Assembly: GCA_024875585.1 (NCBI GenBank)
Contig: GCA_024875585.1_4107.1
Direction: 5' to 3' (one strand)
Length of the DNA: 64,000 nucleotides
Source of the DNA: a phage
Shown: positions 13,470 to 26,711 of the stretch, piece after piece
Position numbering within the stretch: the first letter of the stretch is position 1
How the letters are laid out: the number at the start of each line of letters is the position of its first letter
Translations under genes and position numbers: made by a program
Notes under the pieces: model-generated
What the model was told of the DNA's origin: nothing
The model's database searches: none
The model's input: only the letters and a program-made list of their open reading frames with translations

Positions 13470-13470
13470 T

Positions 13471-13833
13471 ATGAACGGGATTGAATTATCTTTCATTGGT
13501 CAAATACTAGTAATGGTGAATACTTTCTTTTTCTCACTTATTGCATTAATGTGCATTGGAAAGTATTTTCATAAACAACCATTCTCAAATTTATATGATG
13601 TAATAAAAAAGAAATATAGTCCTGCACATAGTGTACTTATTTGCAGTTTCAATTTTGGTTTTGTTGTATTAATAATTGGATTGTTAACATCAACGTCAAA
13701 TGTAATGATCTTCGGTCTTATGATCTGTTCATTGGTATTAGCAGTAATTGTATGTTGTTTAGTACTGCACCTTGTAGTACTATTATATATAAAGCTCGTT
13801 GAAATCCATCAACGTTTAGGTATGAGGAAATAA
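13471..13833 (+). CDS. small membrane protein, family M-like
   Basis: ATG after SD GAGGT (track start 13408 is internal to previous gene); hydrophobic. Confidence 0.5.
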   Translation: MNGIELSFIGQILVMVNTFFFSLIALMCIGKYFHKQPFSNLYDVIKKKYSPAHSVLICSFNFGFVVLIIGLLTSTSNVMIFGLMICSLVLAVIVCCLVLHLVVLLYIKLVEIHQRLGMRK

Positions 13834-13834
13834 T

Positions 13835-14206
13835 ATGAGTTACCGTGAGATATTTTCCATTATTTCAATTATTATGTTCAGTGCTGGGACATTGGTGTGG
13901 GTATTATATTTTTTCTGTGTATCACCAGTGTATAATATGTTATGTAATATTAAATCAAGTTCTGGATATATGACTTTTATGATCTTTATGGGATATTATT
14001 GTCTAAGCATTTTAGGTGTTGTTTTGGTTGTTATATTTGATGTAGGGCCAAATAAGGATGGTCTGAAAATGTATGAGTTAATAACTATGTTTGGGTGTAT
14101 GATACCAACTGCACTAATGTTTGTAGCTATTGGTGCTGGATGTATAAAGTTATACAATTATTTAAAATCCATTCATCATTCCATTCATAATAAACGTATG
14201 TCATAA
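13835..14206 (+). CDS. small membrane protein, family M-like
   Basis: SD GAGGAAA; hydrophobic; basic C-terminus. Confidence 0.5.
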   Translation: MSYREIFSIISIIMFSAGTLVWVLYFFCVSPVYNMLCNIKSSSGYMTFMIFMGYYCLSILGVVLVVIFDVGPNKDGLKMYELITMFGCMIPTALMFVAIGAGCIKLYNYLKSIHHSIHNKRMS

Positions 14207-14939: not shown

Positions 14940-16085
14940 TTATTTTTTCCAAGGAAGTAACGAAGTTGGAATCTTGATAGGTATATTTGATGCAACAACA
15001 TCAGGAAAATTTGCATCTCCACAAACATACAAATTATCGATTTCGTCTATCAATAATGTATAGTTGTAACTTCTACAAAAACCACTTAAGACTCTTCCCT
15101 CTAATGCAGATAAATTCATTTCAGTGAATTGAGTGATATATGTTTCATTTGAACCAACACCACATTGACCATTAGCATTTATACCACAAGTAAGCAATTT
15201 ATTATTGTTTTGAATTACACATGATGGTCCAGCAAGGTTCGTACCTAGTTCACCTACAACATTAACTTCACCTTTTAATGATAAATTTGGGATCACTGTA
15301 CTCATTGGGACTCGAGATGTATTTCCGACACCTGCTTGCCCTGAGCCATTAGTGGATGCTACTTTAACAGTACCGTCATTAAGAAAAATATAAGATGTTT
15401 CGATTGTATTAACTGCTTGAGTAGCTGATGTTATTGACGTATCCTGTTTGAATTTAAGTACATTTGTCGTTGTTGAACCAGAGATAAATGTAGCACCTGC
15501 GTACCAATATGTTCCATCCTGGAGTACTAAACCAGTACTTCTAATTGAACACCCAGCACTTCGAACATTTTCTATATGACTATATGTAAAGGTTGATACG
15601 ATTGAAGATTCACCATTACCGAACACCCCACCAGTACCTGCACCACAGAAAAACCATTTACCGTTTTTCAAAAATACACGCATACAAGCAGAAATAACCA
15701 CACTATCAATATCACTTGCAGTTACACCAAAATCGGTAAAGAAATGAGTTATATCAATCCAATTACCACCAGTATTTGATGGGAGATGTGGAATTACAAC
15801 TCTAGTCCCTGTGTACCAGATTGTATCATCATCTTTAATAACAAGCGTACCTTGAACACCACCCCAATACCTGGTTACATTAGTATTAACAAGTGTCCAC
15901 TCATTAGATGATTCCGTTGAGCCATTACCACCTTGACCATATGATGATGAACCGCACCAGTATAAATTGCCATTTTTATTTAAATAAAATTTTGCATCAG
16001 CCGAACATTGTAATCTGTATTTGAATACAGTTTTTGGTGCTGGTGCAATATTTGCATACTTAATCATTCTTCCAAAAGGTAACAT
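14940..16085 (-). CDS. RCC1-like 7-bladed beta-propeller protein, paralogue 1 (381 aa)
   Basis: N-terminus MLPFGRMIKYAN; repeats YGQGGNG, FGNGES, GQAGVGN, GQCGVGS. Confidence 0.7.
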   Translation of the reverse strand: MLPFGRMIKYANIAPAPKTVFKYRLQCSADAKFYLNKNGNLYWCGSSSYGQGGNGSTESSNEWTLVNTNVTRYWGGVQGTLVIKDDDTIWYTGTRVVIPHLPSNTGGNWIDITHFFTDFGVTASDIDSVVISACMRVFLKNGKWFFCGAGTGGVFGNGESSIVSTFTYSHIENVRSAGCSIRSTGLVLQDGTYWYAGATFISGSTTTNVLKFKQDTSITSATQAVNTIETSYIFLNDGTVKVASTNGSGQAGVGNTSRVPMSTVIPNLSLKGEVNVVGELGTNLAGPSCVIQNNNKLLTCGINANGQCGVGSNETYITQFTEMNLSALEGRVLSGFCRSYNYTLLIDEIDNLYVCGDANFPDVVASNIPIKIPTSLLPWKK

Positions 16086-16110
16086 ATTTTCCTCCTTTAT
16101 TCATTATACT
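16086..16110 (-). promoter_or_regulatory. conserved RBS/-10 cassette (AGTATAATGAATAAAGGAGG)
   Basis: near-identical upstream block shared by all five paralogues; no clear -35. Confidence 0.45.
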
Positions 16111-16133
16111 GTATTTAACCCAATTAAGAAAAG

Positions 16134-16150
16134 CCAGTATCAAGTACTGG
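16134..16150 (-). terminator. intergenic hairpin CCAGTA-loop-TACTGG with flanking T-tract
   Basis: follows stop of 16158..17507. Confidence 0.45.
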
Positions 16151-16157
16151 TATTTTA

Positions 16158-17507
16158 TTATTGTAATGGAATTTCAGTGAGTGTTTTATATGTACTTCCG
16201 TTATACACCCCTCTCCAATATACTTTACCATCAGTACTAACCACTAATAATCCATATGTTGTAAACCCAAGAGTACCACCAACATACATAGCATCTTTGA
16301 TTCTAATACCAATGTCTTCATATGTAAATGACGCGACTGCACCCGCTTGCCATGACGGACTAGCGTAGTAATCACTATAAACACCATGTGCTTTATATAT
16401 TGATGTTGTTCCTGGTTCAAAAATTACAGTTCCACAGTAGTTCATTCGTATTTTAGTACTGGATGAAGTTGGTACATTTATACCCACGTCATCTTTTATC
16501 CCTGTGGTTAGAACGTTAAAACCCCCCGCCACACGGTTGACATCATTCTCACCGATTGAATACATACCAACGTTGTAGCCCATATAATACACACTAGAAC
16601 TTCCATTCCAGAAAGAAAAACCACCACCATTACCACAGCGATATAGTTGTGAATTTGAGCAGTACATCATACCTTCGTTTGTTGCATCAAATTCATCTGC
16701 TGTTCCGATCACAGCCACTGTAGTCCATGTTTTAATCACTTGGTTTGCACTAGCGGGTTTTTGAATACCATATCGTATATTATATCCTTTACCGACTATT
16801 GTACCATCTTCTAATTTGGCATAAAGTACAGGTCTATTACCAACAAAATACATATTATTGTGTGACATGTCTATTGTACGTCTTAATGAAACTACTTTTT
16901 TTGTCAATTGATTATCTTTAGTAAAAGACGTAAAGTAGTAATCCGATGTTGAATTGTTTATTAAACCTTGTATTGACAACCCCATATACCAGATTTCTCC
17001 CTTACTATTCAAAGATGCCAAAATACAACTATATTTTGAAGTGTATGTTGGGTTTACTGAAGTTGCTGGTCCTTTGTCATATCCACCACAGAATACCATC
17101 TCCACAACTTCACCTACGTTAGCAAAATAAGAAGATACATTGATAAAACCATTTGTTATAAAAGGTGCTGTATTTATACTTGAATGTGTGAATATCCCAT
17201 TTGCATATACACCACAAAAATGATATGAACCATCATTATCTTGGACTATTATTCCATTTGATAGTAACCAAAAATTGTTTACATTTTTTCTTACTAATTC
17301 GATTCCTGCCCCATTAGTTGGCGTTATACCAAAAGAAACATATTTTGTTTGACCAATTCCATATAAATTTCCATTTGATGCTAATATTGCACCAAACCAA
17401 TTACCACCACCATTCTTGTTATGACCCATACCTATAGAATCAAATTTCTTAACAGTAGGAGCTTGTACTTTGTTCCCATAATTCACCATTCTTCCAAAAG
17501 GTAACAT
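16158..17507 (-). CDS. RCC1-like beta-propeller protein, paralogue 2 (449 aa)
   Basis: N-terminus MLPFGRMVNYGN; Gly-rich repeats. Confidence 0.7.
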   Translation of the reverse strand: MLPFGRMVNYGNKVQAPTVKKFDSIGMGHNKNGGGNWFGAILASNGNLYGIGQTKYVSFGITPTNGAGIELVRKNVNNFWLLSNGIIVQDNDGSYHFCGVYANGIFTHSSINTAPFITNGFINVSSYFANVGEVVEMVFCGGYDKGPATSVNPTYTSKYSCILASLNSKGEIWYMGLSIQGLINNSTSDYYFTSFTKDNQLTKKVVSLRRTIDMSHNNMYFVGNRPVLYAKLEDGTIVGKGYNIRYGIQKPASANQVIKTWTTVAVIGTADEFDATNEGMMYCSNSQLYRCGNGGGFSFWNGSSSVYYMGYNVGMYSIGENDVNRVAGGFNVLTTGIKDDVGINVPTSSSTKIRMNYCGTVIFEPGTTSIYKAHGVYSDYYASPSWQAGAVASFTYEDIGIRIKDAMYVGGTLGFTTYGLLVVSTDGKVYWRGVYNGSTYKTLTEIPLQ

Positions 17508-17532
17508 ATTTCCCTCCTTTATTCATTATACT
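17508..17532 (-). promoter_or_regulatory. conserved RBS/-10 cassette
   Basis: TATAAT about 18 nt upstream of ATG, SD GGAGGGA. Confidence 0.45.
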
Positions 17533-17554
17533 ATATTTAATACTAAAAGAAAAA

Positions 17555-17573
17555 GCCAGTATCAAGTACTGGC
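17555..17573 (-). terminator. intergenic hairpin GCCAGTA-UCAAG-TACTGGC + T-tract
   Basis: follows stop of 17580..18689. Confidence 0.5.
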
Positions 17574-17579
17574 ATTATG

Positions 17580-18689
17580 TCATTTTGGTAAATTAATTTT
17601 AGTAAAGACTGCAACATCCTCGATTGCACCAGGAATTGCGTAATACGATCCAGTACTATATACATCTCCGTCTTTGGTTAATATTGATGTTAAACCATCA
17701 CTAAAAAGAACATCCCTAATCTCACTAACTTCAACGGGTAATTGTAAATTAGTAGCACTATATATTGCACCAGTTTGAGAATTGTTTAATCCCAAACCAC
17801 GGTTCGCCCCAACACCCTTCTGATATGTACTAGTAATTACCATTTGTGTAGCAGTATTTAAGGCAGGTGAATTCGTCATAAACAACGGTGAACTATTAGG
17901 CAAAGTACTTGCAGGAACTGCACGAAATGTAGTTGTATCTGAACTAAGAAAGTTTGGCGTTTGACCACATACGAAATATGATGTACCATTATAGTAATTA
18001 AATGCATTACCACCAATGACTGCATCGATTACACCAGAGCTACGTAATCCCCACGTGTTAATTTGTGTTCGGTTCCCCGTGCCATGCTGACCCCTGTCAT
18101 TCCACCCAGAACTATATAACTTATTATCTAATGTAATATACATACTGTCATTTGCATTCGTCATTACTTTACGCACATTAGTAGCACATTGAGTTAATGT
18201 GTAAATTGATGATGAACCAATACCTAAAGCACCACGATATCCATTAGCTCCTGCACCATAGAGTACTGAACTAGTGCTAAGTACAAATATTAAACCATAC
18301 GAACATACAATATTAGCAATTTCACTCACTGGTATAGCACTGGTAAACCAATTAGTTCTTTCAACTAATACTGTGCTGTAAGAAGTAGTTGTAGACGATG
18401 TGAACCAATATGTTTCCCCTGATGTCCATATAGTATTATCATTTTTAATAATAACAAGTGCACGATCACCTACGAAAAAATTAGAAACATCTGCACTTAC
18501 TAATATCCATGAAGATACCGTGTTTTTATTACCATTTCCAGATTCACCACCTTGATTTCTACCTATGTAATATAAATCATGTGAATCAGTTAATAAGAAT
18601 TGACCCTGTGTAGATGCACCAACTTTAATTATATTTTTAGGACCAGGTACAATATTCCCATAATCAAACATTCTTACAAAAGGTAACAT
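17580..18689 (-). CDS. RCC1-like beta-propeller protein, paralogue 3
   Basis: start set at conserved MLPFVRM (SD GGAG upstream); repeats GESGNGN, GALGIGS, GQHGTGN. Confidence 0.7.
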   Translation of the reverse strand: MLPFVRMFDYGNIVPGPKNIIKVGASTQGQFLLTDSHDLYYIGRNQGGESGNGNKNTVSSWILVSADVSNFFVGDRALVIIKNDNTIWTSGETYWFTSSTTTSYSTVLVERTNWFTSAIPVSEIANIVCSYGLIFVLSTSSVLYGAGANGYRGALGIGSSSIYTLTQCATNVRKVMTNANDSMYITLDNKLYSSGWNDRGQHGTGNRTQINTWGLRSSGVIDAVIGGNAFNYYNGTSYFVCGQTPNFLSSDTTTFRAVPASTLPNSSPLFMTNSPALNTATQMVITSTYQKGVGANRGLGLNNSQTGAIYSATNLQLPVEVSEIRDVLFSDGLTSILTKDGDVYSTGSYYAIPGAIEDVAVFTKINLPK

Positions 18690-18718
18690 AACTAAAATCT
18701 CCATATAATAATTATAAT
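18690..18718 (-). promoter_or_regulatory. RBS/-10 cassette variant
   Basis: TATAAT on minus strand about 22 nt upstream of ATG. Confidence 0.4.
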
Positions 18719-18732
18719 GTATTTACAAAAAA

Positions 18733-18760
18733 ATACCAGTACGTATTTCAGTACTGGTAT
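18733..18760 (-). terminator. intergenic hairpin ATACCAGTAC-loop-GTACTGGTAT + T-tract
   Basis: 10 bp stem after stop of 18764..19945. Confidence 0.55.
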
Positions 18761-18763
18761 CAT

Positions 18764-19945
18764 TTATGGTAAAATGATAGATTGTAACGAACTCATACCC
18801 AATGCTGGAACACTAGCCTGTGGTGCTGGAGAATTCAATTTTGGTGATGAAACCGCATATGACATTCCTGAACCCAAATCTGGATCAAAAACTACAGCAC
18901 AATAATTCCCACTATATATAAGTCCATTCTTGTATCCTTGTGCACTTTGAATGCATTTCGTGAACGTACCAATATCTGTCGTGGCATTTATTAAGTTCCT
19001 CCCACGATAACCGCAGGTGTATATGAAATTATCATCGCCTATGTACATACTAGAATCCCCAGAAGAACTACATAGATACGACATATAAGCACGCATGTTT
19101 TTAGGAGCAACTGACAATGTACCTGCATAGAATTTATTATTCGAACCCGTAATATCACCATCACCCAATGCACCAAAACTTCCCCAGCCAGTACCGTAAT
19201 ATCTCTTATCACTCAAAAATATAATACAGTTGTTATTACACATCTTGATTTGATATATCAATGAAGGATCAACCCCAGGGAATGATTCAGTGAATGTTAG
19301 AACAGCCGGATCAGTACTAGCATTACATTGATGATATGTATTAGTACCAGCGGACAAGATTGTTCCATTAGCTAACAGAATTCTCGCAGTACCAGTACCA
19401 GCAGTACAAGCAACTGCACTTCCTGCACTTCCGGTGTATATTTGTCTGAAAGTAAAGAAACCAACAGTTTTACTTCCCTGCCCACTCCAACCAGTATTAT
19501 CAACTCCACACGCCCATACTGAACCATCTTGCATGATCATCATTACACCAAAGCGTTCTATTGAAATATAAACAATCTTCGTTGTATCAACTGCACTAAA
19601 TCTAGAAGTTATATCAGTCCATACCTTAACACTTACCGCCGTCGCACTGGAAGTAGGATCTTCACCAGCTATCATTATCCTCCCATTGTTAGTAAGATAC
19701 ATTGTCTGACTATAACCAGTACTACAAAACTTAACACTATCAGTCTCTGGAACTTTTAACCACTCGTTGTAACGTGTTACGTTAGTGTTATTACCTAACT
19801 GATAATAGTTATTCATCCCAGATACATATAACACACCATCCTTTATTAAACTATAAGTCGCACTATAGTCACTACAGGTATAACGTGTACCCACAGGTCG
19901 CTCAACGACGTTCCCGTACTTAACCATTCTCCCAAAAGGTAACAT
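18764..19945 (-). CDS. RCC1-like beta-propeller protein, paralogue 4 (393 aa)
   Basis: N-terminus MLPFGRMVKYGN; repeats YQLGNNT, GSFGALGDGD. Confidence 0.7.
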   Translation of the reverse strand: MLPFGRMVKYGNVVERPVGTRYTCSDYSATYSLIKDGVLYVSGMNNYYQLGNNTNVTRYNEWLKVPETDSVKFCSTGYSQTMYLTNNGRIMIAGEDPTSSATAVSVKVWTDITSRFSAVDTTKIVYISIERFGVMMIMQDGSVWACGVDNTGWSGQGSKTVGFFTFRQIYTGSAGSAVACTAGTGTARILLANGTILSAGTNTYHQCNASTDPAVLTFTESFPGVDPSLIYQIKMCNNNCIIFLSDKRYYGTGWGSFGALGDGDITGSNNKFYAGTLSVAPKNMRAYMSYLCSSSGDSSMYIGDDNFIYTCGYRGRNLINATTDIGTFTKCIQSAQGYKNGLIYSGNYCAVVFDPDLGSGMSYAVSSPKLNSPAPQASVPALGMSSLQSIILP

Positions 19946-19970
19946 ATTTTCCTCCTTTATTCATTATACT
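19946..19970 (-). promoter_or_regulatory. conserved RBS/-10 cassette
   Basis: same block as 16086..16110. Confidence 0.45.
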
Positions 19971-19990
19971 ATATTTAATACAAAAAGAAA

Positions 19991-20011
19991 TGCCAGTATC
20001 AAGTACTGGCA
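19991..20011 (-). terminator. intergenic hairpin TGCCAGTA-UCAAG-TACTGGCA + T-tract
   Basis: follows stop of 20019..21167. Confidence 0.5.
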
Positions 20012-20018
20012 TATTAAT

Positions 20019-21167
20019 TCATTGTATAAATGACATATCTACTTCTGTATAATTAAGAACGTTCTGTCCAGAAATACCACCCATTACTACTATTGCAAGG
20101 CCACAATAATATAATTTTCCAGTATCCGTAAGTATAAGTGATCCAGATGGACTGCGTACCAAATCACACGAACTATTAAAAGAAGTATAAGAAGGAGTAT
20201 AGGAGTACTGATTATTATTATTACCAACACCTAATTGCCCAAACCCATTCGATCCAGAAGCATATAGAACTTCATCTGCTTTGACAATATGTGATGCCAT
20301 GTTACCAACACAAGTATATAGAGTATAAACTCCTGAACTCAATAATGTCGGAGTTTTATATTGTATATCTGTAGATGTAGAAGTACCACCTGTACCAAAT
20401 TCGTTCCCATATTGTGCACCGAACTGTTTACCACAAGCGTACAAATTATTATCCGATTTGATAAAAAATGTACTCTGATAACTTACATTAAAATCTATAA
20501 CATCCGAAGAAATCATCGTCACCCCAGTAATAGAAGTTTGATTACCCGTGCCCAACTGGTAGTAATAGTTAAAACCACAACCCCATAAAGTATTATCTTC
20601 TCGCAAATAAATGTTACCAACTGCCTTTTTAACCGAAGTTATAGTATCTACTCTTTTGAATGTGTTAAAAGAATTAATGTTTGTACCATCACCAAATGAT
20701 GATATGTTCGATATATTGTTAACTCCACAACAATACAATGTACCATCTTTTGTTATCAAATTCACCTTCATATCATAAAAACTACTCATGTATTTTATAT
20801 CAGAAACATTAACACCACTTGATGTTATCCACGTAGTACAGTCCGTCCACAAAGTTTTTCTATCAGTTACACCAGTGAATGCCTTCGTGTTACCAGTGAT
20901 AAAAACTTTTCCAGTACCTTTCTCTTCATACAATTGACAATCACTACTGTTATCTTCCAATAGAACTCGTTTAACATTCTCCGCACAAAGAATAAATTTA
21001 CTCGATGCTACACCTGTACCAGTACCCCAATTCGTCGCAGAAGATGCATACAACTTATCAGTATAAGTATCATGAAGATACATAGAATCACTGGAATATA
21101 TTTTAAAACGCCCTTCTTTCTCAGGTATAATATTCCCGTACTTAACCATTCTCCCAAAAGGTAACAT
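20019..21167 (-). CDS. RCC1-like beta-propeller protein, paralogue 5 (382 aa)
   Basis: N-terminus MLPFGRMVKYGN; repeats YYQLGTGNQ, GFGQLGVGNN. Confidence 0.7.
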   Translation of the reverse strand: MLPFGRMVKYGNIIPEKEGRFKIYSSDSMYLHDTYTDKLYASSATNWGTGTGVASSKFILCAENVKRVLLEDNSSDCQLYEEKGTGKVFITGNTKAFTGVTDRKTLWTDCTTWITSSGVNVSDIKYMSSFYDMKVNLITKDGTLYCCGVNNISNISSFGDGTNINSFNTFKRVDTITSVKKAVGNIYLREDNTLWGCGFNYYYQLGTGNQTSITGVTMISSDVIDFNVSYQSTFFIKSDNNLYACGKQFGAQYGNEFGTGGTSTSTDIQYKTPTLLSSGVYTLYTCVGNMASHIVKADEVLYASGSNGFGQLGVGNNNNQYSYTPSYTSFNSSCDLVRSPSGSLILTDTGKLYYCGLAIVVMGGISGQNVLNYTEVDMSFIQ

Positions 21168-21209: not shown

Positions 21210-21238
21210 TTGACACCCTTTCAGTACTGTTGTACGAT
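21210..21238 (+). promoter_or_regulatory. sigma70-like promoter TTGACA-N17-TACGAT
   Basis: divergent from minus-strand cluster; precedes family Y array. Confidence 0.45.
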
Positions 21239-21263
21239 AGAAGGAATATTAGGAGAACTACAC

Positions 21264-21491
21264 ATGACAAATACCCTTAAGTACTACCTCAATACTCTGC
21301 CCGACCTAGAGTACGGGAAGTTTCTCGCAGATAGTTCGTGGCTGATTGAGCTAAAAACACATAACAGCCCTGGATGCACCCTTATGATGAACAATGCAAT
21401 TGATACCCTTATAGTGAGTATTTTACATAGCAATATCTACGAGGATAACAATAAACAATTAACAAAAATCTTAGTACTGCTATCTCTATGA
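21264..21491 (+). CDS. family Y small protein (75 aa)
   Basis: ATG after SD AGGAGA; MTNTLKYYLNTL start; track start 21210 is TTG in promoter. Confidence 0.5.
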   Translation: MTNTLKYYLNTLPDLEYGKFLADSSWLIELKTHNSPGCTLMMNNAIDTLIVSILHSNIYEDNNKQLTKILVLLSL

Positions 21492-21700
21492 ACACTATGA
21501 GCACTGAACAGTTCTACATCAATGCACTACCAACTAAAAGTCTTCAAGAAAGCTTACTGTATACACAAAAGAATTTTAAAAACTTCAAACGTTGCCCTAA
21601 ACTACTGAACTCGTACAGGAATAATATTATAAGAAATGTTTTACAAGGAGAAGAAAGTATGCAATACTATCACATCCTTATCCTTATATTGGAGTACTAA
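21488..21700 (+). CDS. family Y small protein
   Basis: ATGA coupling; TEQFYINAL...ILILEY. Confidence 0.5.
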   Translation: MNTMSTEQFYINALPTKSLQESLLYTQKNFKNFKRCPKLLNSYRNNIIRNVLQGEESMQYYHILILILEY

Positions 21701-21701
21701 T

Positions 21702-21911
21702 ATGAATACTGAACATAAAGAATTCTACACCAAATACCTCAGTAACGAAGAACAATTGTTTCTAAGAAGTGTATCACCTGTAAGTACCAATACTCAATTC
21801 GGTAGAGATTGCTTTAATAATTGTATACGTAGTACCCTAGAAGCTATCGAATACAATAACAAAAATATTATGTACTCAGGTTTAATAGGACTAATATTCT
21901 TCTATGAATAA
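21702..21911 (+). CDS. family Y small protein
   Basis: MNTEHKEFYTKYL...LIFFYE; TAATATG junction. Confidence 0.55.
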   Translation: MNTEHKEFYTKYLSNEEQLFLRSVSPVSTNTQFGRDCFNNCIRSTLEAIEYNNKNIMYSGLIGLIFFYE

Positions 21912-22098
21912 TCATAAAGATTTCTATGGTAGTAAACTACACAAACATGAACAGCTATCATTCTCTTTAGCACCACCTATGAGAAAGGATAATCTATATT
22001 ATAATTACGATTTCAGGATGGCGACACGTTATGCAATAGAACATCAGTTCCCTGAAACTAAGTACCGCTCTATCCTGAACCTCATCTTTAAGTTCTAA
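21904..22098 (+). CDS. family Y small protein
   Basis: MNNHKDFYGSKL...LIFKF. Confidence 0.55.
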   Translation: MNNHKDFYGSKLHKHEQLSFSLAPPMRKDNLYYNYDFRMATRYAIEHQFPETKYRSILNLIFKF

Positions 22099-22145
22099 AA
22101 ACCGCACCAGGGTCCGAGTACTTTAACATAGTAAGGCTAATTACA

Positions 22146-22331
22146 ATGAATCACATAAGCTACTACTACCAACAACTATCCGACAGAGACAAGTACAGCC
22201 ACAATTCCCATGTATGGTACTACAAACGCGGCAGTATAAGAGACAAACAACATTACTTCTGTATTTCTATTAAAGAAGCACTAACAACTAAGTACACGTA
22301 CAGAGCAGTACTTAAACTAATCTCTATCTAA
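22146..22331 (+). CDS. family Y small protein
   Basis: MNHISYYYQQL...LKLISI. Confidence 0.5.
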   Translation: MNHISYYYQQLSDRDKYSHNSHVWYYKRGSIRDKQHYFCISIKEALTTKYTYRAVLKLISI

Positions 22332-22339
22332 GGAATACT

Positions 22340-22519
22340 ATGCAAGAATTCTATATAGAACATATAACCATAAAAGACCGTTTCATGTACGACACCTTCG
22401 TGAAATACTACAAACTGGGAACAAAAAGTACTAAAAATATAAATCTCAATAGCTGCATTCATTCTGCACTAACAAAAGAAAATCCCTTCAGGGAAATCCT
22501 TGCACTTGCATCTGTATAA
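22340..22519 (+). CDS. family Y small protein (59 aa)
   Basis: MQEFYIEHI...; below track cutoff; SD AAGGAAT. Confidence 0.45.
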   Translation: MQEFYIEHITIKDRFMYDTFVKYYKLGTKSTKNINLNSCIHSALTKENPFREILALASV

Positions 22520-22529
22520 AGGAATTCAA

Positions 22530-23189
22530 ATGAAACTTAATCCACACAGTAAACAATACCTTAAGCACTTTAAATACCTCAACAGTATTCAAGCAGAATC
22601 AGTTACATCATCTTATACGTATCACCCGAATATACTAAAGAAACGAAATAAAAAGAAAAAATCCAGACCTGTTCTCGTATCTAAGAACCTCAAATCGTAC
22701 TTGAAGAAAAATAATATAGCTCTTGCTTTTATTAGTATCTATAATACTGATTTAAAAGTATTGAGTACTAATACCAGCACAAAAGCACTAAAGAATGCAT
22801 CTATCTATATACACATGGATAATATCCCGTGCACTATAATTCTATCTTTCGGGAATGTATACTTCTTCGGGAATTGTAATAGCACCCATGATATCAGTAC
22901 TGCACAATTCCAAATCGGAGATATGTACTGCATGGGTTCAGAAAAAATACACGATAACATGCACTTCTTCCAAAAGCAACGTACTAACGAAACTGATACA
23001 GTACTGCAATTCCTCAAAGAATTACAAAACAAAGAATTATCCGAGGAAGAAGAATTCATGTACAGTACTGTAATCGATAATCCAGGACTCTATAAAAACG
23101 CGTACAAACTAACAAAACATGTACAGGAACTTATCAGTACTGATAAGAAATTCCATCACCTCATTACGTATATTTCAAACTATGTATAA
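22530..23189 (+). CDS. hypothetical protein (219 aa) inside family Y array
   Basis: ATG after SD AAAGGAATT; track start 22500 overlaps previous ORF. Confidence 0.55.
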   Translation: MKLNPHSKQYLKHFKYLNSIQAESVTSSYTYHPNILKKRNKKKKSRPVLVSKNLKSYLKKNNIALAFISIYNTDLKVLSTNTSTKALKNASIYIHMDNIPCTIILSFGNVYFFGNCNSTHDISTAQFQIGDMYCMGSEKIHDNMHFFQKQRTNETDTVLQFLKELQNKELSEEEEFMYSTVIDNPGLYKNAYKLTKHVQELISTDKKFHHLITYISNYV

Positions 23190-23364
23190 AGAATTCTACA
23201 AAGATAAAATCCCAATGCATCTACAACACCATATACCAAACGTTGCATTGGGCATAAAAGATCACGCAAAGATAATGTTCCAACAATGTACTAAGTACAC
23301 GCTCATATACGATGATAATCCATATATGCTGTACTACGTAGTAATGCTAACATTCAGGTACTAA
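23182..23364 (+). CDS. family Y small protein (60 aa)
   Basis: MYKEFYKDKI...MLTFRY; overlaps upstream stop. Confidence 0.55.
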   Translation: MYKEFYKDKIPMHLQHHIPNVALGIKDHAKIMFQQCTKYTLIYDDNPYMLYYVVMLTFRY

Positions 23365-23365
23365 T

Positions 23366-23545
23366 ATGCACAAATATAAAGAATTCTACCTCTCGTACCT
23401 TAATTCCGATATAGTAACATCCAATACCTTCAGTACTAAAATTATCTATAATGAAGTAATGAAAGAATGTATTAAAGGTGCTATTAACCCTAAAGATACG
23501 TATGACTTGTACTATGCAGTACTAACCCTTGTTTTCACGAAATAA
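23366..23545 (+). CDS. family Y small protein (59 aa)
   Basis: MHKYKEFYLSYL...TLVFTK; below track cutoff. Confidence 0.5.
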   Translation: MHKYKEFYLSYLNSDIVTSNTFSTKIIYNEVMKECIKGAINPKDTYDLYYAVLTLVFTK

Positions 23546-23553
23546 CACATAAT

Positions 23554-23742
23554 ATGAATAACCACAAAGAATACTACATACAATTTCTCCCCAGTATTTT
23601 TGAACACTACGCCAGATATAAAGTCCCCCTGGATAACGATTTGGCAGTACTGGGATTCAATCACTGCATAGAACGAAGTATAGAAAATAGTAATAGCTAT
23701 GAACAATTATATAACACTATCCTACTTATATTCAGGTACTAA
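23554..23742 (+). CDS. family Y small protein
   Basis: MNNHKEYYIQFL...LLIFRY. Confidence 0.6.
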   Translation: MNNHKEYYIQFLPSIFEHYARYKVPLDNDLAVLGFNHCIERSIENSNSYEQLYNTILLIFRY

Positions 23743-23743
23743 T

Positions 23744-23932
23744 ATGCACAAAGAATACTACGCAAAATATTTCCCAATGTATCTCAGAACTAATCTATTA
23801 GATAAACCTCGCGATATCAATGCACAAAACGATAAAGTGTACTTTATTATGTGCACTAAAGCATGTATACTAGATCATGACAGCTACCATCGAGTACTGT
23901 ATCATACACTGTACCTAGCTTTCGTATTCTAA
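23744..23932 (+). CDS. family Y small protein
   Basis: MHKEYYAKYF...YLAFVF; TAATATG junction. Confidence 0.6.
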   Translation: MHKEYYAKYFPMYLRTNLLDKPRDINAQNDKVYFIMCTKACILDHDSYHRVLYHTLYLAFVF

Positions 23933-23941
23933 GAGAACAAT

Positions 23942-24127
23942 ATGCATAAAGAATTCTACTTAAGCCATCTGGATCTAAACTCCCAAATGCTTATACCACT
24001 AATCCCAATAGATATCAAGGATAAGAAAAATACCGAACAATTCATTTACCATACACAGTGTGCGATCACCCCAAATTACATTCCATATGAATTGTACTAC
24101 ATTCTCGCCCTAATATATAGGTACTAA
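23942..24127 (+). CDS. family Y small protein
   Basis: MHKEFYLSHL...LALIYRY. Confidence 0.6.
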   Translation: MHKEFYLSHLDLNSQMLIPLIPIDIKDKKNTEQFIYHTQCAITPNYIPYELYYILALIYRY

Positions 24128-24128
24128 T

Positions 24129-24314
24129 ATGCATAGAGAATACTACACACAATTTGTTAAAGGGAACTACAAACATGCCGTACCCAGAACCCCTTTAAAT
24201 TCTCATGACCCAAGTACTATATTCCTGTTTAATGACGCAATACGTACAGTACTCAATACTAAAGATGAACAAGTGCAGTACGTATTCTTACTTTTACTTA
24301 TATACAGACACTAA
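24129..24314 (+). CDS. family Y small protein
   Basis: MHREYYTQFV...LLLIYRH. Confidence 0.6.
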   Translation: MHREYYTQFVKGNYKHAVPRTPLNSHDPSTIFLFNDAIRTVLNTKDEQVQYVFLLLLIYRH

Positions 24315-24336
24315 CTAATATACAGACACTAACTAA
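24301..24336 (+). repeat. 18 bp perfect tandem duplication (TATACAGACACTAACTAA x2)
   Basis: spans stop codon of 24129..24314 and reaches the next start codon. Confidence 0.8.
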
Positions 24337-24337
24337 T

Positions 24338-24520
24338 ATGAATAAAGAACATAAAGACTTCTACATAAGAAAACTAACATTCGTCCCCGTAAGAATATAC
24401 AAAGAATGCGACCCAAGATTATACCTATGGCACTTCAATGAGTGCATAAAAGATTCTATATACCCTAAGAACTATAAAGAACAATTGTGCTCAGTACTAA
24501 CACTAGTACTATCATATTAA
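24338..24520 (+). CDS. family Y small protein
   Basis: MNKEHKDFYIRKL...LTLVLSY. Confidence 0.6.
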   Translation: MNKEHKDFYIRKLTFVPVRIYKECDPRLYLWHFNECIKDSIYPKNYKEQLCSVLTLVLSY

Positions 24521-24533
24521 TAGAGATAATACT

Positions 24534-24725
24534 ATGTATAAAGAGTACTATATAAGTAAACTCAAAGAGAATGAACAAGCATGGATTAAATCTATAATAG
24601 CACTTGCATTTAATAGATATGCATTTAACAGATGCACAGAGATTGCTATAGAACCTTGTCCTATTAAAGAGAAGGCACAGTACAATCAGTACTACTATAT
24701 GTTAATGCTTATATATAGAAAGTAA
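24534..24725 (+). CDS. family Y small protein
   Basis: MYKEYYISKL...MLIYRK. Confidence 0.6.
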   Translation: MYKEYYISKLKENEQAWIKSIIALAFNRYAFNRCTEIAIEPCPIKEKAQYNQYYYMLMLIYRK

Positions 24726-24847
24726 TTCAACATAGAGACAGGGGAAGCTCCGCAGGGTAAGCATTGGACAGGCTTTAACATATGTTATATATGTTAAAAT
24801 TCAGCCTGGACAAATGCGATCACTAGGATTCTCCCCAGGCTAAACCC

Positions 24848-25088
24848 CGTAATCATATATAAACATTTAAGTAATCATTTATAATCATTGTGGTGATCAG
24901 TAGTGATTAGTATTGAGTACTAGAGTGTAATAGAGTACAGGAATGTGCACGTTTAATCAAGAACGTAGCAGTACTGATATGCCACTAAGTAGGCAGAGGA
25001 AGTCTGCCGTACTTTGTAGTTTCCAAGCTCCTTTTCCATTTTGCAAATTACATCAAATGTAATCAAAAGTAATCACGTAATGATTAGT
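24848..25088. repeat. cluster of at least 9 short (G)TAATCA / TGATTA(G) motifs
   Basis: motif recurs in both orientations in non-coding DNA; candidate protein-binding array. Confidence 0.4.
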
Positions 25089-25135
25089 ACTGAAATATTA
25101 GTTTCATCTTTTTTCAAATACCTTTTTACCCTTCG

Positions 25136-25158
25136 GGATAAATGTATTTTTATCCATT
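25136..25158. promoter_or_regulatory. inverted repeat GGATAAA-N6-TTTATCC with DnaA-box-like TTATCCATT
   Basis: 7 bp perfect inverted repeat; loose match to TTATCCACA consensus. Confidence 0.25.
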
Positions 25159-25198
25159 TACCTTTGGGGTAAAATCCCATTACCCCTTGAGGCTCCAG

Positions 25199-25300
25199 CA
25201 AAAAGTTGGAAAGTACTCCATCGTAAATATGGATCGTAAAAATTTTGGAGTACCTATGAAATAAAAGTTGGATCTTCGAAAGTTGAAATTTACGTTGGGA
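25199..25300. repeat. AT-rich repeat block (AAAGTTGGA direct repeats; GTACTCCA/TGGAGTAC inverted repeat flanking ATCGTAAA x2)
   Basis: nested direct and inverted repeats in non-coding DNA. Confidence 0.4.
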
Positions 25301-25381
25301 CATTGATGTTTTTTGGGATATAATGAGTTTTGTAGTGATGAAGTTTGTACGATTACAGTACTGAATAATGAAAGAAAGCTA

Positions 25382-25409
25382 TTGACATTATGATTCAGTA
25401 CTGTATAAT
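25382..25409 (+). promoter_or_regulatory. sigma70-like promoter TTGACA-N16-TATAAT with no obvious ORF downstream
   Basis: consensus hexamers; may drive a non-coding transcript. Confidence 0.45.
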
Positions 25410-25789
25410 GTTCTACATAGAGAGATGAGTTGCCGCAAACAATTCATTCACTCTACCTCCTGTCGTGAGACAGTACAGAAAAGATAGTTCCTCCTATGCG
25501 TGGTACATCTTTTTATAACCTCTTTTTTAGTAATATAAACAGTACTGGTATTAACAGAATGGTATCAGTACTGACTTTAATCTAATACATTATACCACCA
25601 GCACAAGCTGGTGGATTCCCTCTAACAGTATTCAGTACTACATGATAGTCTTCATCCTCCTAGGGTAACATAGTGAGGGCTATTGTGGGAGTACTGAATA
25701 CTCCTTTCAAAAGATAGAATAATGGTATAGTACCGACGGATTTTGGGCGTAGTTACCCTGGGTGGATTTTGGACGTAGATATGTCTAGC

Positions 25790-25926
25790 CCTCCAGAAGT
25801 CTGGAAGTAAAGATGGCTATCCATCTAGACGGCTAAACGGATAGATTTCTAGATGGCTGTATGGCTAGACGTTTGGATGGCTAAACGGCTAGATGGTTAC
25901 ACGTCTGGAAGTATAGACGGCTAAAT
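25790..25926. repeat. iteron-like repeat cluster (GGCTAAAC / CTAGAYGG / TCTGGAAGT units)
   Basis: at least 5 GGCTA-containing units and 2 TCTGGAAGT units in about 140 bp. Confidence 0.5.
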
Positions 25927-26104
25927 CAAAATTTTTATTTTGTTTTTCCAATAGTTCCCCTACCGCGTGAGGATATTTTTCCCCGCAGTATCTGGAGTTA
26001 GATTTTTCTGAATCTGGAATCATTATCTAATAAACTGGGGGCAATGTCAACCGCCTGGATGAATATTTTTAAAAATAATCTAGTACTGAATTTTGGGCGT
26101 AACT

Positions 26105-26126
26105 ATGCACCCGGTGGGCTTGAGTC
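26105..26126. repeat. dispersed intergenic repeat, orientation B (GCACCCGGTGGG core)
   Basis: preceded by AATTTTGGGCG box; copies at 28244, 30397. Confidence 0.45.
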
Positions 26127-26265
26127 TTTCTCGACTTGATGAAACTATTATACAGTACTAGAAAAATAAAGCAATACCCTAAACGCAAAAAAATTTAATT
26201 AATTTGCTTGCTATCCTGGGCCGTAATATGGTACTATTAGTTCAGTACTGAGAAAGTGCTTTAAC

Positions 26266-26289
26266 CTGCTAGGGTGCGGGAGTGTATCC
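26266..26289. repeat. dispersed intergenic repeat, orientation A (GGGTGCGGGAGTGTATC)
   Basis: copies at 28188, 34916, 38327, 41334, 43624. Confidence 0.45.
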
Positions 26290-26320
26290 TTTTTAAATTA
26301 TATGAATTTTGGGCGGATCT

Positions 26321-26342
26321 CGGCACCCTGTGGGTCAGTGCC
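26321..26342. repeat. dispersed repeat variant (GCACCCTGTGGGTCAGTG)
   Basis: preceded by AATTTTGGGCG box. Confidence 0.4.
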
Positions 26343-26628
26343 TTGTGTCCGGCTTATGTAGTAATTATACGCTTTTTCAGTACTGAGTCAATAGCTAAAA
26401 ACAAAAATAATTGAAAATAATTTAACGCGTTTAAACGGCCCGTAAAGCCCTGGAGTGATTGGAATGGTACAAATGTATAGCTTAGGTGTATTAATGCGTT
26501 AGAATGCGATTGAGGCCGTTTTATGGGGTGTAGTGGTGATTTGATTGATTCAGTACTGAATAATAGTACTGAAAGATAGTTCCCCTATATAGAAAGAAAA
26601 CTATTTTAAAAGTACATGTAGAAAGTAC

Positions 26629-26656
26629 TTGCAAACTATCTCAATTGGCGTATAAT
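26629..26656 (+). promoter_or_regulatory. early promoter AAAGTACTTGCAA-N16-TATAAT
   Basis: A-rich upstream, TTGCAA -35, TATAAT -10; leader hairpin at 26670..26688. Confidence 0.6.
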
Positions 26657-26669
26657 GTTTTACATCGAG

Positions 26670-26688
26670 AGCGGGAACACTTCCCGCT
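26670..26688 (+). promoter_or_regulatory. 5' leader hairpin AGCGGGAA-CAC-TTCCCGCT
   Basis: perfect stem a few nt after predicted TSS. Confidence 0.5.
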
Positions 26689-26711
26689 GCACATAAAGAG
26701 AGATTAAAACG

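What the first reader, a model, noticed from the sequence alone, without database searches (positions are those of the whole stretch)
21210..24725. Family Y: 14 tandem 59-75 aa paralogues with M(H/N)KE(F/Y)Y... N-termini and ...L(I/L)(Y/F)R(Y/H) C-termini
Fourteen small genes, mostly coupled by overlapping or adjacent stop/start codons, share an N-terminal M-(N/H)-(N)-(H)-K-(E/D)-(F/Y)-Y-x-x-(L/F) and a hydrophobic C-terminus ending (L/I)(I/V)(Y/F)R(Y/H). Their central regions differ. Several were missed or mis-started by the ORF track (22340..22519, 23366..23545, 23182, 23744). An 18 bp perfect tandem duplication spans the stop of one member (24301..24336), and an unrelated 219 aa gene is inserted mid-array. 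I cannot assign any function.
Basis: seen in the sequence. Interest (0 to 1): 0.65.

Follow-up and report, generated by a model that had tools for sequence, protein, structure and literature searches.

The report
Tandem small-protein gene family, jumbo phage
A 3.5-kb stretch of an E. coli jumbo phage (Asteriusvirus, 121Q/PBECO4 group) encodes 13-14 diverged copies of one ~60-residue helical protein in a single, probably early-expressed operon; the genes are real and confined to this phage genus, related phages carry different sets of copies, and the function is untested, most plausibly host take-over or counter-defence.

Summary
Window 21264-24725 carries 14 head-to-tail small ORFs (59-75 aa) around one unrelated 219-aa gene, and the 18-bp tandem duplication at 24301-24336 is exact.

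- **Coding:** the ORFs are protein-coding. Orthologue dN/dS is 0.14-0.65, third-codon-position changes are about twice as frequent, and AlphaFold2 gives a confident four-helix model (pLDDT 90).
- **Membership:** thirteen members are demonstrably homologous. Member 1 is only weakly similar.
- **Corrections:** coordinate 21210 is the -35 box of a conserved sigma70-type promoter, not a start codon. The centres are not unrelated, because they share an F-N-x-C-(I/T)-x-x-x-(I/L) helix.
- **Distribution:** the family matches PHROG 11711 (function unknown) and was found only in Asteriusvirus phages, always at this locus. Copy number ranges from 14 to 22, with cassettes gained and lost, in-frame fusions and mosaicism between relatives.
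- **Fold:** no solved or predicted viral structure resembles it.
- **Virion:** the proteins are absent from the phAPEC6 virion proteome.

Best reading, by inference only: an early, translationally coupled accessory operon of diversified binding modules aimed at host or defence targets. It is a new member of a known kind (hyperplastic small-gene arrays of large lytic phages). Interest is moderate.

The parts
21210..21238 (+). Sigma70-type promoter of the array: TTGACA, a 17-nt spacer containing the palindrome TCAGTACTG, then TACGAT
   Evidence: Found by the consensus scan. The -35 box, the palindrome and the -10 box are almost invariant in 9 loci, including a divergent metagenomic contig. It is one of 8 promoters of this type in the window.
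21264..21491 (+). Y1, 75 aa; doubtful member, first gene of the operon; AGGAG lies 8 nt upstream
   Evidence: Leave-one-out E = 1.0. hhalign probability is 18%, but the alignment is co-linear over the full length. dN/dS = 0.27.
21488..21700 (+). Y2, 70 aa; its start overlaps the Y1 stop (ATGA)
   Evidence: hhalign of its subfamily against the core gives 94% probability, E = 1e-7. dN/dS = 0.44.
21702..21911 (+). Y3, 69 aa
   Evidence: PHROG 11711, E = 9e-13. Leave-one-out E = 5.5e-11.
21904..22098 (+). Y4, 64 aa; overlaps Y3 by 8 nt
   Evidence: PHROG 11711, E = 2e-22. Leave-one-out E = 2.7e-6.
22146..22331 (+). Y5, 61 aa; subfamily ending in ...LKLISI
   Evidence: hhalign of the Y5/Y6-type subfamily against the core gives 96% probability, E = 6e-9. 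dN/dS = 0.14.
22340..22519 (+). Y6, 59 aa; subfamily ending in ...LALASV
   Evidence: Leave-one-out E = 1.3e-3. hhalign as for Y5.
22530..23189 (+). Unrelated 219-aa gene (PHROG 29152), a fixed component in the middle of the array in all relatives
   Evidence: PHROG 29152, E = 7e-114. Found only in Asteriusvirus. No relation to the family. AlphaFold2 failed, pLDDT 37. Its codon usage resembles the array's.
23182..23364 (+). Y7, 60 aa; overlaps the end of the 219-aa gene by 8 nt
   Evidence: PHROG 11711, E = 2.6e-22. Leave-one-out E = 4.8e-10.
23366..23545 (+). Y8, 59 aa
   Evidence: PHROG 11711, E = 3.7e-6. Leave-one-out E = 1.4e-9.
23554..23742 (+). Y9, 62 aa
   Evidence: PHROG 11711, E = 4.8e-23. 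Leave-one-out E = 1.4e-12.
23744..23932 (+). Y10, 62 aa
   Evidence: PHROG 11711, E = 4.4e-26. Leave-one-out E = 5.1e-6.
23942..24127 (+). Y11, 61 aa; the sequence that was modelled
   Evidence: AlphaFold2 pLDDT 90.3, with helices at residues 2-7, 12-16, 28-42 and 47-60. Nucleotide sequence is 100% identical to the 121Q orthologue.
24129..24314 (+). Y12, 61 aa
   Evidence: PHROG 11711, E = 2.9e-9. Leave-one-out E = 6e-9.
24301..24336 (+). Exact 18-bp tandem duplication (ATATACAGACACTAACTA, two copies) covering the Y12 stop codon and the spacer; it lengthens the spacer from 5 to 23 nt
   Evidence: Exact repeat. Absent from 121Q, SP27, JP4, SD-6, BF17 and EC.P1. UE-S1 has a different 8-nt insertion at the same point.
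24338..24520 (+). Y13, 60 aa
   Evidence: PHROG 11711, E = 2.2e-6. Leave-one-out E = 7.4e-9.
24534..24725 (+). Y14, 63 aa; last gene of the array
   Evidence: PHROG 11711, E = 2.7e-20. Leave-one-out E = 2.5e-11.
24741..24836 (+). Long imperfect hairpin directly after the last gene; possible 3' end or processing element of the operon transcript (uncertain)
   Evidence: RNA fold -39.2 kcal/mol, z = -3.2. The 3' half is invariant in relatives, the 5' half comes in alternative versions, and there is essentially no covariation. Rfam has no match.
24992..25018 (+). First terminator-like site downstream of the array (GGCAGAGGAAGTCTGCC followed by a weak T-rich tail)
   Evidence: Found by the consensus scan. 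No terminator-like site lies inside 21210-24725 on the + strand.

Best explanation
**What is shown.**
- The stretch is one polycistronic operon of 13-14 anciently diverged paralogues. Median identity between paralogues in the window is 25%.
- Each paralogue is a soluble protein of about 60 residues that does not appear in the virion.
- All share one small four-helix scaffold. The conserved residues lie on one face of each long helix: N-terminal H-K-E-(F/Y)-Y, L10, P22, F34, C37, I/L42 and C-terminal Y-x-x-(I)L-x-L-I-(Y/F)-R-Y.
- The loops and outward-facing positions vary, and they carry all the length differences.
- Related phages differ by whole cassettes.

**What is inferred.**
- Host sigma70 RNA polymerase transcribes the operon early in infection from the conserved promoter at 21210.
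- The genes are translated by coupling. Four junctions read (A/G)GG-TAC-TAA-T-ATG or GAG-TAC-TAA-T-ATG, so the last codons of one gene supply the ribosome-binding site of the next.
- The conserved 5' and 3' coding ends therefore do three jobs: protein core, translation signal, and short homology for unequal recombination. That recombination adds, removes and fuses cassettes between co-infecting relatives.
- Each paralogue binds a different host or host-defence protein, so the array acts as an accessory host take-over or counter-defence toolkit whose composition is tuned by cassette exchange.
For: **Coding and under constraint.**
- dN/dS is 0.14-0.65 for every member, and third-position changes dominate.

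**One fold.**
- AlphaFold2 gives pLDDT 90.3 and pTM 0.72 from the paralogues alone.
- An independently predicted family member in BFVD superposes with TM 0.86-0.88.
- Conserved columns 34/37-38/41-42 and 51/54-55/57-58/61 follow an i, i+3/4, i+7 spacing.

**Soluble, with mixed charge.**
- pI ranges from 5.3 to 9.6, and the highest 19-residue hydropathy is 1.18 or less.

**Single operon.**
- There is one conserved sigma70-type promoter.
- No terminator-like site lies inside the array.
- Gaps between family genes are 47 nt or less, and six are 1 nt or less.

**Early expression (indirect).**
- The promoter belongs to a class of eight TTGAC(A/T)...CAGTACTG...TAnnAT promoters in the window.
- In relatives, RpoD-like promoters precede blocks of short hypothetical genes proposed to be early in CBB (PMC5259590). 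PA5oct relies on host RNA polymerase, and its early genes are mostly uncharacterised (PMC7318152).
- The array uses C-ending Tyr and Phe codons (TAC 63 to TAT 29; TTC 34 to TTT 12). The C-ending fraction of NNY codons is 0.50, against 0.22-0.30 in the larger-gene blocks of the window, including the RCC1-like (virion-protein) cluster.
- The T4-type late motif TATAAATA is absent from the array.

**Not in the virion.**
- None of phAPEC6 gp540c-gp548c is among the 62 virion proteins detected, although the neighbouring gp549 and gp551 and a 4.7-kDa protein were detected.

**Accessory and shuffled.**
- Copy number is 14 to 22, with 52 sequence types in 12 loci on a shared framework.
- Three in-frame fusions occur at the conserved N-terminal segment: the UE-S1 last gene, SD-6 'q' and EC.P1 'w'.
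- The window array is a mosaic. Y1-Y10 are 97-100% identical to UE-S1, and Y11-Y13 are 98-100% identical to 121Q or SP27.

**Restricted lineage.**
- Only 29 clusters were found among 1.84 billion representative proteins.
- All 34 phage records with a tblastn match are Escherichia or Salmonella phages with genomes of about 310-390 kb, and every one examined is an Asteriusvirus.
- Metagenomic members sit in the same synteny.
- No member was found in the sister-genus stretches that were fetched.
Against: - No experiment or database annotation bears on function. Pfam, NCBIfam, PADLOC and PDB sequence searches are all empty.
- Early timing rests on a consensus match and on analogy. The -10 box is imperfect (TACGAT or TACTAT), and the promoter scan as a whole finds no more sites than shuffled sequence does.
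- There is no sign of fast diversifying selection between orthologues. dN/dS is about 0.3, and substitutions are spread fairly evenly outside the C-terminal helix. That fits stable, specialised functions at least as well as an arms race.
- Half of the array genes were not annotated in phAPEC6, so the negative proteome result is incomplete.
- Y1 may not belong to the family.
Confidence: 0.4

Rival explanations
1. The proteins are packaged internal head proteins, like the T4 internal proteins (IPs). The conserved N-terminus would be a capsid-targeting sequence, and the variable bodies would be injected with the DNA to block host restriction.
For: - The Rak2-like group is distantly related to T4-like phages (PMC5259590).
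- The IP locus is shuffled between relatives (PMC4122927).
- 121Q and phAPEC6 heads contain an inner body (PMC7247149).
- The family has a strongly conserved N-terminus.
Against: - None of the annotated array proteins (gp540c-gp548c) is in the phAPEC6 virion proteome, although a 4.7-kDa protein was detected there.
- Homology runs the full length and includes a conserved C-terminus, not only an N-terminal tag.
- The N-terminal residues are modelled as an integral helix with pLDDT 91.
- No conserved (L/I)-x-E cleavage motif follows the N-terminal segment. This rests on reading the alignment; the T4 cleavage rule is from my own knowledge.
Confidence: 0.07
2. The proteins serve a phage-internal role rather than targeting the host. 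For example, they could be dedicated partners (chaperones, adaptors or regulators) of the neighbouring multi-copy RCC1-like virion proteins, or small regulators of the phage's own transcription programme.
For: - The array is always divergently adjacent to the tandem RCC1-like cluster.
- That cluster is itself multi-copy. 121Q has 13 such genes (PMC5259590), and several are virion proteins.
- Purifying selection on every member fits stable, specific partners.
Against: - Sister genera keep the RCC1-like cluster, and no family member was found in the stretches fetched around it. One side of the Yersinia cluster runs off the end of the record.
- The array is on the opposite strand, behind a sigma70-type promoter, and has different codon usage from the RCC1-like genes (C-ending NNY 0.50 against 0.22).
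- Cassette content differs between phages that are otherwise very similar.
Confidence: 0.15
3. The array is a recently amplified 'genomic accordion', meaning copy-number gain of one gene under acute selection, as in poxvirus K3L or the evolved T4 tifA region.
For: - Tandem arrangement, variable copy number (14-22) and a private 18-bp slippage duplication.
- T4 is reported to acquire counter-defence rapidly through recombination (PMC9391042 abstract).
Against: - Paralogues in the window are only 11-41% identical, with a median of 25%.
- Each type has orthologues in most relatives at the same position in the array, so the duplications are old and the copies are individually maintained.
Confidence: 0.03
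4. The conserved ends belong to a structured non-coding repeat, and the ORFs are not translated. This is the refuting alternative the first reader named.
For: - The junction sequences recur as 48-64-nt direct repeats at 60-77% identity.
- GTAC and AGTACT are strongly over-represented at the DNA level.
Against: - dN/dS is well below 1 for all 14 ORFs, and third-position changes predominate.
- All frames stay intact across 12 loci, and the fusions between cassettes are in frame.
- The protein model is confident.
- Rfam has no match.
- AGTACT excess is a clade-wide property, not specific to this array.
Confidence: 0.01

Closest known systems
Hyperplastic regions of T4-like phages and their PeSL-mediated modular shuffling (Comeau, Arbiol and Krisch 2014, PMC4122927)
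   Same: - Blocks of small, mostly uncharacterised accessory genes driven by sigma70-type early promoters lie between conserved modules.
- Close relatives differ by insertion, deletion and exchange of whole genes at short conserved sequences (compared).
   Different: - Here all cassettes are homologues of one fold.
- There is a single promoter and no stem-loop between the genes.
- The recombination substrate appears to be the conserved coding ends and the stop/start junction, not an intergenic promoter plus stem-loop element.
- Promoter plus stem-loop units do occur elsewhere in the window.
T4 internal-protein (IP) locus with its capsid-targeting sequence (PMC3012670)
   Same: A polymorphic set of small proteins with a shared N-terminal segment, shuffled between relatives. 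In T4 they neutralise host restriction.
   Different: - Family Y is conserved along its full length and is all-helical.
- It is absent from the one available virion proteome.
- It lacks an evident protease site.
Lineage-specific expansions of small proteins in jumbo phages, for example about 35 zinc-ribbon copies in Bacillus phage G (Iyer et al. 2021, PMC7824862)
   Same: A single small domain is multiplied many times in one jumbo-phage lineage, and its role is unknown.
   Different: - The fold is different: no metal-binding motif and no recognisable relatives.
- The copies are strictly tandem, in one operon, at one locus.
PHROG 11711 (function unknown)
   Same: Ten of the 14 members match it over the full length, with E from 4e-6 to 4e-26.
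   Different: The Y1, Y2, Y5 and Y6 types are not captured by the PHROG. The Y2 and Y5/Y6 types are joined to it here only by profile-profile comparison.

Membership tests
PHROG 11711 | Significant full-length match to the 62-position profile | tested here: met
   Y3, Y4 and Y7-Y14 match with E from 3.7e-6 to 4.4e-26. Y2 scores E = 0.16. Y1, Y5 and Y6 have no match, and are linked, or in the case of Y1 not linked, by hhalign.
T4-type internal proteins (capsid-targeting sequence family) | Present in purified virions | tested here: not met
   phAPEC6 gp540c-gp548c are absent from the 62-protein virion proteome. About half of the array ORFs were not annotated in that genome, so the test is incomplete.
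T4-type internal proteins (capsid-targeting sequence family) | Only a short N-terminal targeting peptide is shared, it is followed by a prohead-protease site, and the bodies are unrelated | tested here: not met
   Homology is full-length and includes a conserved central helix and C-terminus. The N-terminus is modelled as part of the fold. No conserved (L/I)-x-E follows it in the alignment.
T4-like hyperplastic region with PeSL elements | Variable gene content between close relatives, flanked by conserved genes | tested here: met
   There are 14-22 cassettes between the conserved RCC1-like gene and the conserved downstream 120-aa gene.
T4-like hyperplastic region with PeSL elements | Composite early-promoter plus stem-loop elements in the intergenic spaces between the shuffled ORFs | tested here: not met
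   There is only one promoter, at the 5' end, and no terminator-like hairpin inside the array. Most spacers are 1-13 nt.
Genomic accordion (recent tandem amplification) | Near-identical neighbouring copies | tested here: not met
   Pairwise identity between paralogues is 11-41%.
Colicin-type four-helix immunity proteins (Im7/Im9-like) | Structural similarity to the Im four-helix fold | tested here: not met
Known anti-defence proteins | Sequence or structural match to a characterised inhibitor, or a demonstrated inhibitory activity | not testable with these tools
   No anti-defence library was available. The PDB and BFVD searches gave no such match. Activity needs an experiment.

The most novel reading that the evidence does not exclude
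Family Y is a phage-encoded repertoire built on a previously unseen four-helix mini-scaffold. Each paralogue would be a dedicated inhibitor of a different host immunity or housekeeping protein. The conserved gene ends would act together as protein core, translational-coupling signal and recombination handle, so that co-infecting Asteriusviruses can swap inhibitor cassettes in frame. In effect this would be a built-in, evolvable counter-defence library.
Probability: 0.25. Interest if true: 0.7.

Novelty: new member of a known kind. Interest (0 to 1): 0.45.

Why it matters
- **Candidate set.** If the inference is right, the array offers more than 50 natural sequence variants of one tiny, confidently modelled scaffold. 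These could be screened against E. coli and Salmonella defence systems and essential proteins. That makes it a compact source of new inhibitors and a handle on host range in a group of jumbo phages being considered for therapy.
- **Evolutionary mechanism.** It also shows a concrete way for accessory genes to be shuffled without intergenic recombination elements, because the conserved coding ends and stop/start junctions double as exchange points.
- **Annotation.** About half of these genes are missing from several deposited Asteriusvirus records. The family profile and the corrected starts would fix that.

Tried and rejected
- **Remote homology.** Pfam, NCBIfam, PADLOC and PDB sequence searches found nothing.
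- **219-aa gene as an expanded family member.** I suspected this from its termini. It is rejected: the HMM score is negative and hhalign probability is 0.1-0.8%.
- **Structure of the 219-aa protein.** The model is unusable, pLDDT 37. A PDB sequence search gave only a chance-level hit.
- **Wider census.** A single-protein scan of IMG/VR returned only 121Q itself.
- **Sister genera.** No members were found in the fetched Yersinia and Erwinia stretches around the RCC1-like anchor. The Yersinia record ends at one side of the cluster, so that side was not examined.
- **Hairpin after the array as a conserved structured RNA.** There is no covariation and no Rfam match, so it is left open.
- **Literature.** I found no paper that describes this family, and no transcriptome of an Asteriusvirus.
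- **Positive selection.** No signal is seen at the resolution available.

Full report
**Identity of the window.** The region is 90-98% identical to Asteriusvirus genomes: E. coli and Salmonella jumbo phages of about 350 kb, such as 121Q, PBECO4, SP27 and JP4. UE-S1 is the closest. The window contains no tRNA genes.

**The observation.**
- Fourteen small ORFs lie head to tail on the + strand between 21264 and 24725, and all end in TAA.
- One 219-aa gene (22530-23189) sits between the sixth and seventh ORFs.
- Spacers between family genes are -4, +1, -8, 47, 8, 1, 8, 1, 9, 1, 23 and 13 nt. The 219-aa gene starts 10 nt after Y6, and Y7 overlaps its end by 8 nt.
- A family HMM recovers exactly these 14 from the 967 six-frame ORFs of the window. 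The next best hit has E = 0.27.
- The 18-bp tandem duplication at 24301-24336 is exact.

**How many are truly homologous.**
- Leave-one-out profiles secure Y3, Y4 and Y7-Y14, with E from 5e-6 to 1e-12. These are the same ten that match PHROG 11711.
- Y6 is marginal, and Y1, Y2 and Y5 fail on window data alone.
- With subfamily alignments from 12 loci, hhalign joins the Y2 type (94% probability, E = 1e-7) and the Y5/Y6 types (96%, E = 6e-9) to the core over their full length.
- The Y1 type reaches only 18% (P = 1.3e-3). Controls against the 219-aa family give 0.1-0.8%.
- So thirteen members are solid and Y1 is doubtful.
Besides H-K-E-(F/Y)-Y at the N-terminus and Y-x-x-L-x-L-I-(Y/F)-R-Y at the C-terminus, there is a conserved central F-N-x-C-(I/T)-x-x-x-(I/L) motif.

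**Coding or not.**
- For each of the 14 ORFs, comparison with orthologues in up to nine other loci gives dN/dS of 0.14-0.65, about 0.3 pooled.
- Differences by codon position are 455, 425 and 857.
- Frames are intact in all 12 loci.
- Rfam finds nothing above noise.
- The non-coding-repeat alternative is therefore rejected.

**Structure and properties.**
- AlphaFold2, given only the 14 paralogues, returns a confident model: pLDDT 90.3, pTM 0.72, helices at residues 2-7, 12-16, 28-42 and 47-60.
- Conserved columns follow a helical i, i+3/4, i+7 spacing. Length variation falls in the predicted loops. This indicates a conserved core with variable surfaces.
- The proteins have no transmembrane-grade hydrophobic stretch. 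Their pI ranges from 5.3 to 9.6, and up to 15% of residues are Tyr.
- PDB sequences, Pfam, NCBIfam and PADLOC give no match.

**Distribution.**
- An exhaustive profile search of 1.84 billion representative proteins finds 29 clusters.
- The word-indexed search of 5.8 billion finds 45 proteins. The sources that name them are Asteriusvirus phages or E. coli assemblies with contigs of about 350 kb.
- tblastn finds the family in 34 of 50,697 phage records, all Escherichia or Salmonella phages with genomes of about 310-390 kb. Every record examined is an Asteriusvirus.
- The most divergent metagenomic members lie in arrays of the same kind around a ~220-aa gene. A 69.7-kb JGI contig shows the full synteny: RCC1-like genes on the opposite strand, the array around the ~220-aa gene, a gap of about 2 kb, then a 120-aa gene.
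- The stretches fetched around the RCC1-like clusters of Yersinia fHe-Yen9-04 and Erwinia Hallingskeid contain no member.

**Array dynamics.**
- Copy number is 14 in the window and UE-S1, 15 in SD-6_S16 and 16 in 121Q.
- A4 scores 16, plus one annotated Y1-type gene that the profile missed.
- SP27 and the JGI contig have 19, JP4 and EC.P1 have 21, and BF17 has 22.
- At 62% identity the members fall into 52 types.
- Arrays share a framework, A B C D E ... F | G H s I J K L ... M N. Blocks such as k-n-a-p, s, u-j, w and T are present or absent.
- Three in-frame fusions at the conserved N-terminal segment coincide with loss of the intervening genes:
  - the UE-S1 last gene, which has an M-type head on an N-type body;
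  - SD-6 'q', which has a G-type head on an s-type tail;
  - EC.P1 'w', which has an M-type head.
- The window itself is a mosaic. Y1-Y10 are 97-100% identical to UE-S1 at the nucleotide level. Y11-Y13 are 98-100% identical to 121Q or SP27 and only 62-93% to UE-S1.
- The 18-bp duplication is private to this window and lies in the spacer after the Y12 stop codon. UE-S1 has a different 8-nt insertion at the same point.
- Paralogues within the window are 11-41% identical, so the family is old rather than a recent amplification.

**Expression context.**
- The TTG at 21210 that the ORF listing uses as a start codon is the -35 hexamer of TTGACA-N5-TCAGTACTG-N3-TACGAT. The relatives have TACTAT or TACAAT as the -10 box.
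- This element is almost invariant across nine loci.
- It is one of eight sigma70-type promoters in the window that carry CAGTACTG in the spacer.
- No terminator-like site lies inside the array. A long hairpin (24741-24836, z = -3.2) and a weak terminator-like site (24992) follow it.
- Four junctions read ...(A/G)GG or GAG, then TAC TAA T ATG, so the penultimate Arg or Glu codon provides a Shine-Dalgarno-like AGG or GGAG for the next gene. Other junctions overlap as ATGA or ATGAATAA.
- Codon use differs from the rest of the window. C-ending NNY codons make up 0.50 in the array, 0.47 in the 219-aa gene and 0.41 in the downstream small-gene block. They make up 0.22-0.30 in the other gene blocks, which include the RCC1-like virion-protein cluster. 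In the array TAC outnumbers TAT 63 to 29, and TTC outnumbers TTT 34 to 12. This explains the anomalous negative GC skew of a + strand gene block seen.
- That C-ending Tyr and Phe codons are the ones favoured in highly expressed E. coli genes is established knowledge, not something tested here.
- In related phages, RpoD-like promoters precede runs of short hypothetical genes proposed to be early (CBB, PMC5259590). PA5oct depends on host RNA polymerase and has TTGAC/TATAATA promoters (PMC7318152).
- Early expression of the array is therefore a reasonable inference, but it has not been shown.

**Location of the proteins.**
- In phAPEC6 the array is gp540c-gp548c.
- None of these is among the 62 virion proteins found by mass spectrometry, although the adjacent RCC1-like gp549 and gp551 and a 4.66-kDa protein were found.
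- This argues against a T4-IP-like packaged role. The caveat is that about half of the array ORFs were not annotated in that genome.

**Interpretation.**
- *Shown:* a genus-restricted tandem family of real genes, under purifying selection and shuffled as cassettes. They encode a small helical protein with no recognisable relatives, sit in one operon behind a conserved sigma70-type promoter, and were not detected in the one available virion proteome.
- *Inferred:* early expression by host RNA polymerase, translational coupling, and recombination at the conserved coding ends.
- *Most speculative:* that each paralogue binds a different host or defence target.
- The closest described phenomenon is the hyperplastic accessory regions of T4-like phages, where short conserved elements mediate modular exchange (PMC4122927). 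Here the conserved elements are the gene ends themselves, and all modules share one fold.
- The lack of elevated dN/dS and the age of the paralogues temper the arms-race picture. They leave room for a phage-internal role, for example with the neighbouring RCC1-like paralogues.

**Verdict.** The feature is real, correctly spotted and, as far as I could find, not described in the literature. It belongs to a familiar category. Function remains open, and the experiments listed under next steps would decide it.

Noticed in passing
whole window; densest at 21200-45000: The palindrome AGTACT occurs 225 times against 21.6 expected, and CAGTACTG 46 times against 0.64. It appears in all three reading frames, and 42% of copies lie in the 18% of the window that is non-coding. 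Density follows the small-gene blocks (5.6-8.6 per kb) and drops to chance level in 52-59 kb. The same excess is seen in 121Q, A4 and the sister genera (Yersinia fHe-Yen9-04, Erwinia Hallingskeid). I found no description of this motif in the searches run.
   Followed up: partly
+ strand 4076, 21210, 25382, 28135, 30832, 43717; - strand 28307, 26391: There are eight near-consensus sigma70-type promoters with CAGTACTG in the spacer, usually abutting the -10 box. Several are followed by a GC-rich stem-loop, which resembles the promoter plus stem-loop (PeSL) units of T4-like phages. The palindrome could be an operator or a phage-specific promoter element.
   Followed up: partly
24726-26711: A ~2-kb ORF-poor stretch follows the array. 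It corresponds to a gap of about 2 kb that is left unannotated, or carries only tiny ORF calls, in every relative examined. It holds convergent and divergent strong promoters, repeated ATTTTGGGCG...GCACCC.GTGGG units (25741, 26090, 26306), and short hairpins. It may encode small RNAs or be a regulatory or replication region. Rfam finds nothing.
   Followed up: partly
25813-25924: Iteron-like direct repeats in roughly 8-nt phase (GGCTA[A/G]ACGG and TAGATGGCT) are followed by an AT-rich run. This could be a protein-binding array or an origin of replication (family D1).
   Followed up: no
whole window: The T4-type late-promoter motif TATAAATA occurs once (17171-17178, - strand), against 15.0 +/- 3.6 expected from shuffles. 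It is strongly avoided.
   Followed up: no
14940-21167, - strand: Five tandem RCC1-like (beta-propeller) paralogues of 374-449 aa lie divergently next to the array. Homologues are virion proteins in phAPEC6 (gp549, gp551) and are multi-copy across the Rak2-like group.
   Followed up: partly
11767-14206, + strand: Seven consecutive, tightly packed genes encode small proteins of 104-141 aa with strongly hydrophobic stretches (maximum 19-residue hydropathy 2.0-3.1), so they are probably membrane proteins. They show no BLAST-level similarity to each other. Genes annotated as membrane proteins of similar size lie next to the RCC1-like cluster in Yersinia phage fHe-Yen9-04.
   Followed up: partly
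L007 (Salmonella phage SD-6_S16) 4455-5054; P0091, P0092: In the Salmonella-infecting relatives the ~220-aa mid-array gene is truncated or split into products of 120-137 aa. It therefore appears dispensable there, unless these are assembly errors.
   Followed up: no
relatives' records (BF17, EC.P1, phAPEC6, PBECO4, Sharanji): About half of the family genes are unannotated in several deposited genomes. For example, BF17 is annotated with 13 of its 22 members and phAPEC6 with 8.
   Followed up: partly
P0021, P0070, P0078, P0085, P0087 clusters: Array proteins and the 219-aa protein also appear under 'Escherichia coli' in NCBI, on contigs of 126-384 kb. Whole Asteriusvirus genomes therefore sit inside some bacterial assemblies, either as a carrier state or as contamination.
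   Followed up: no
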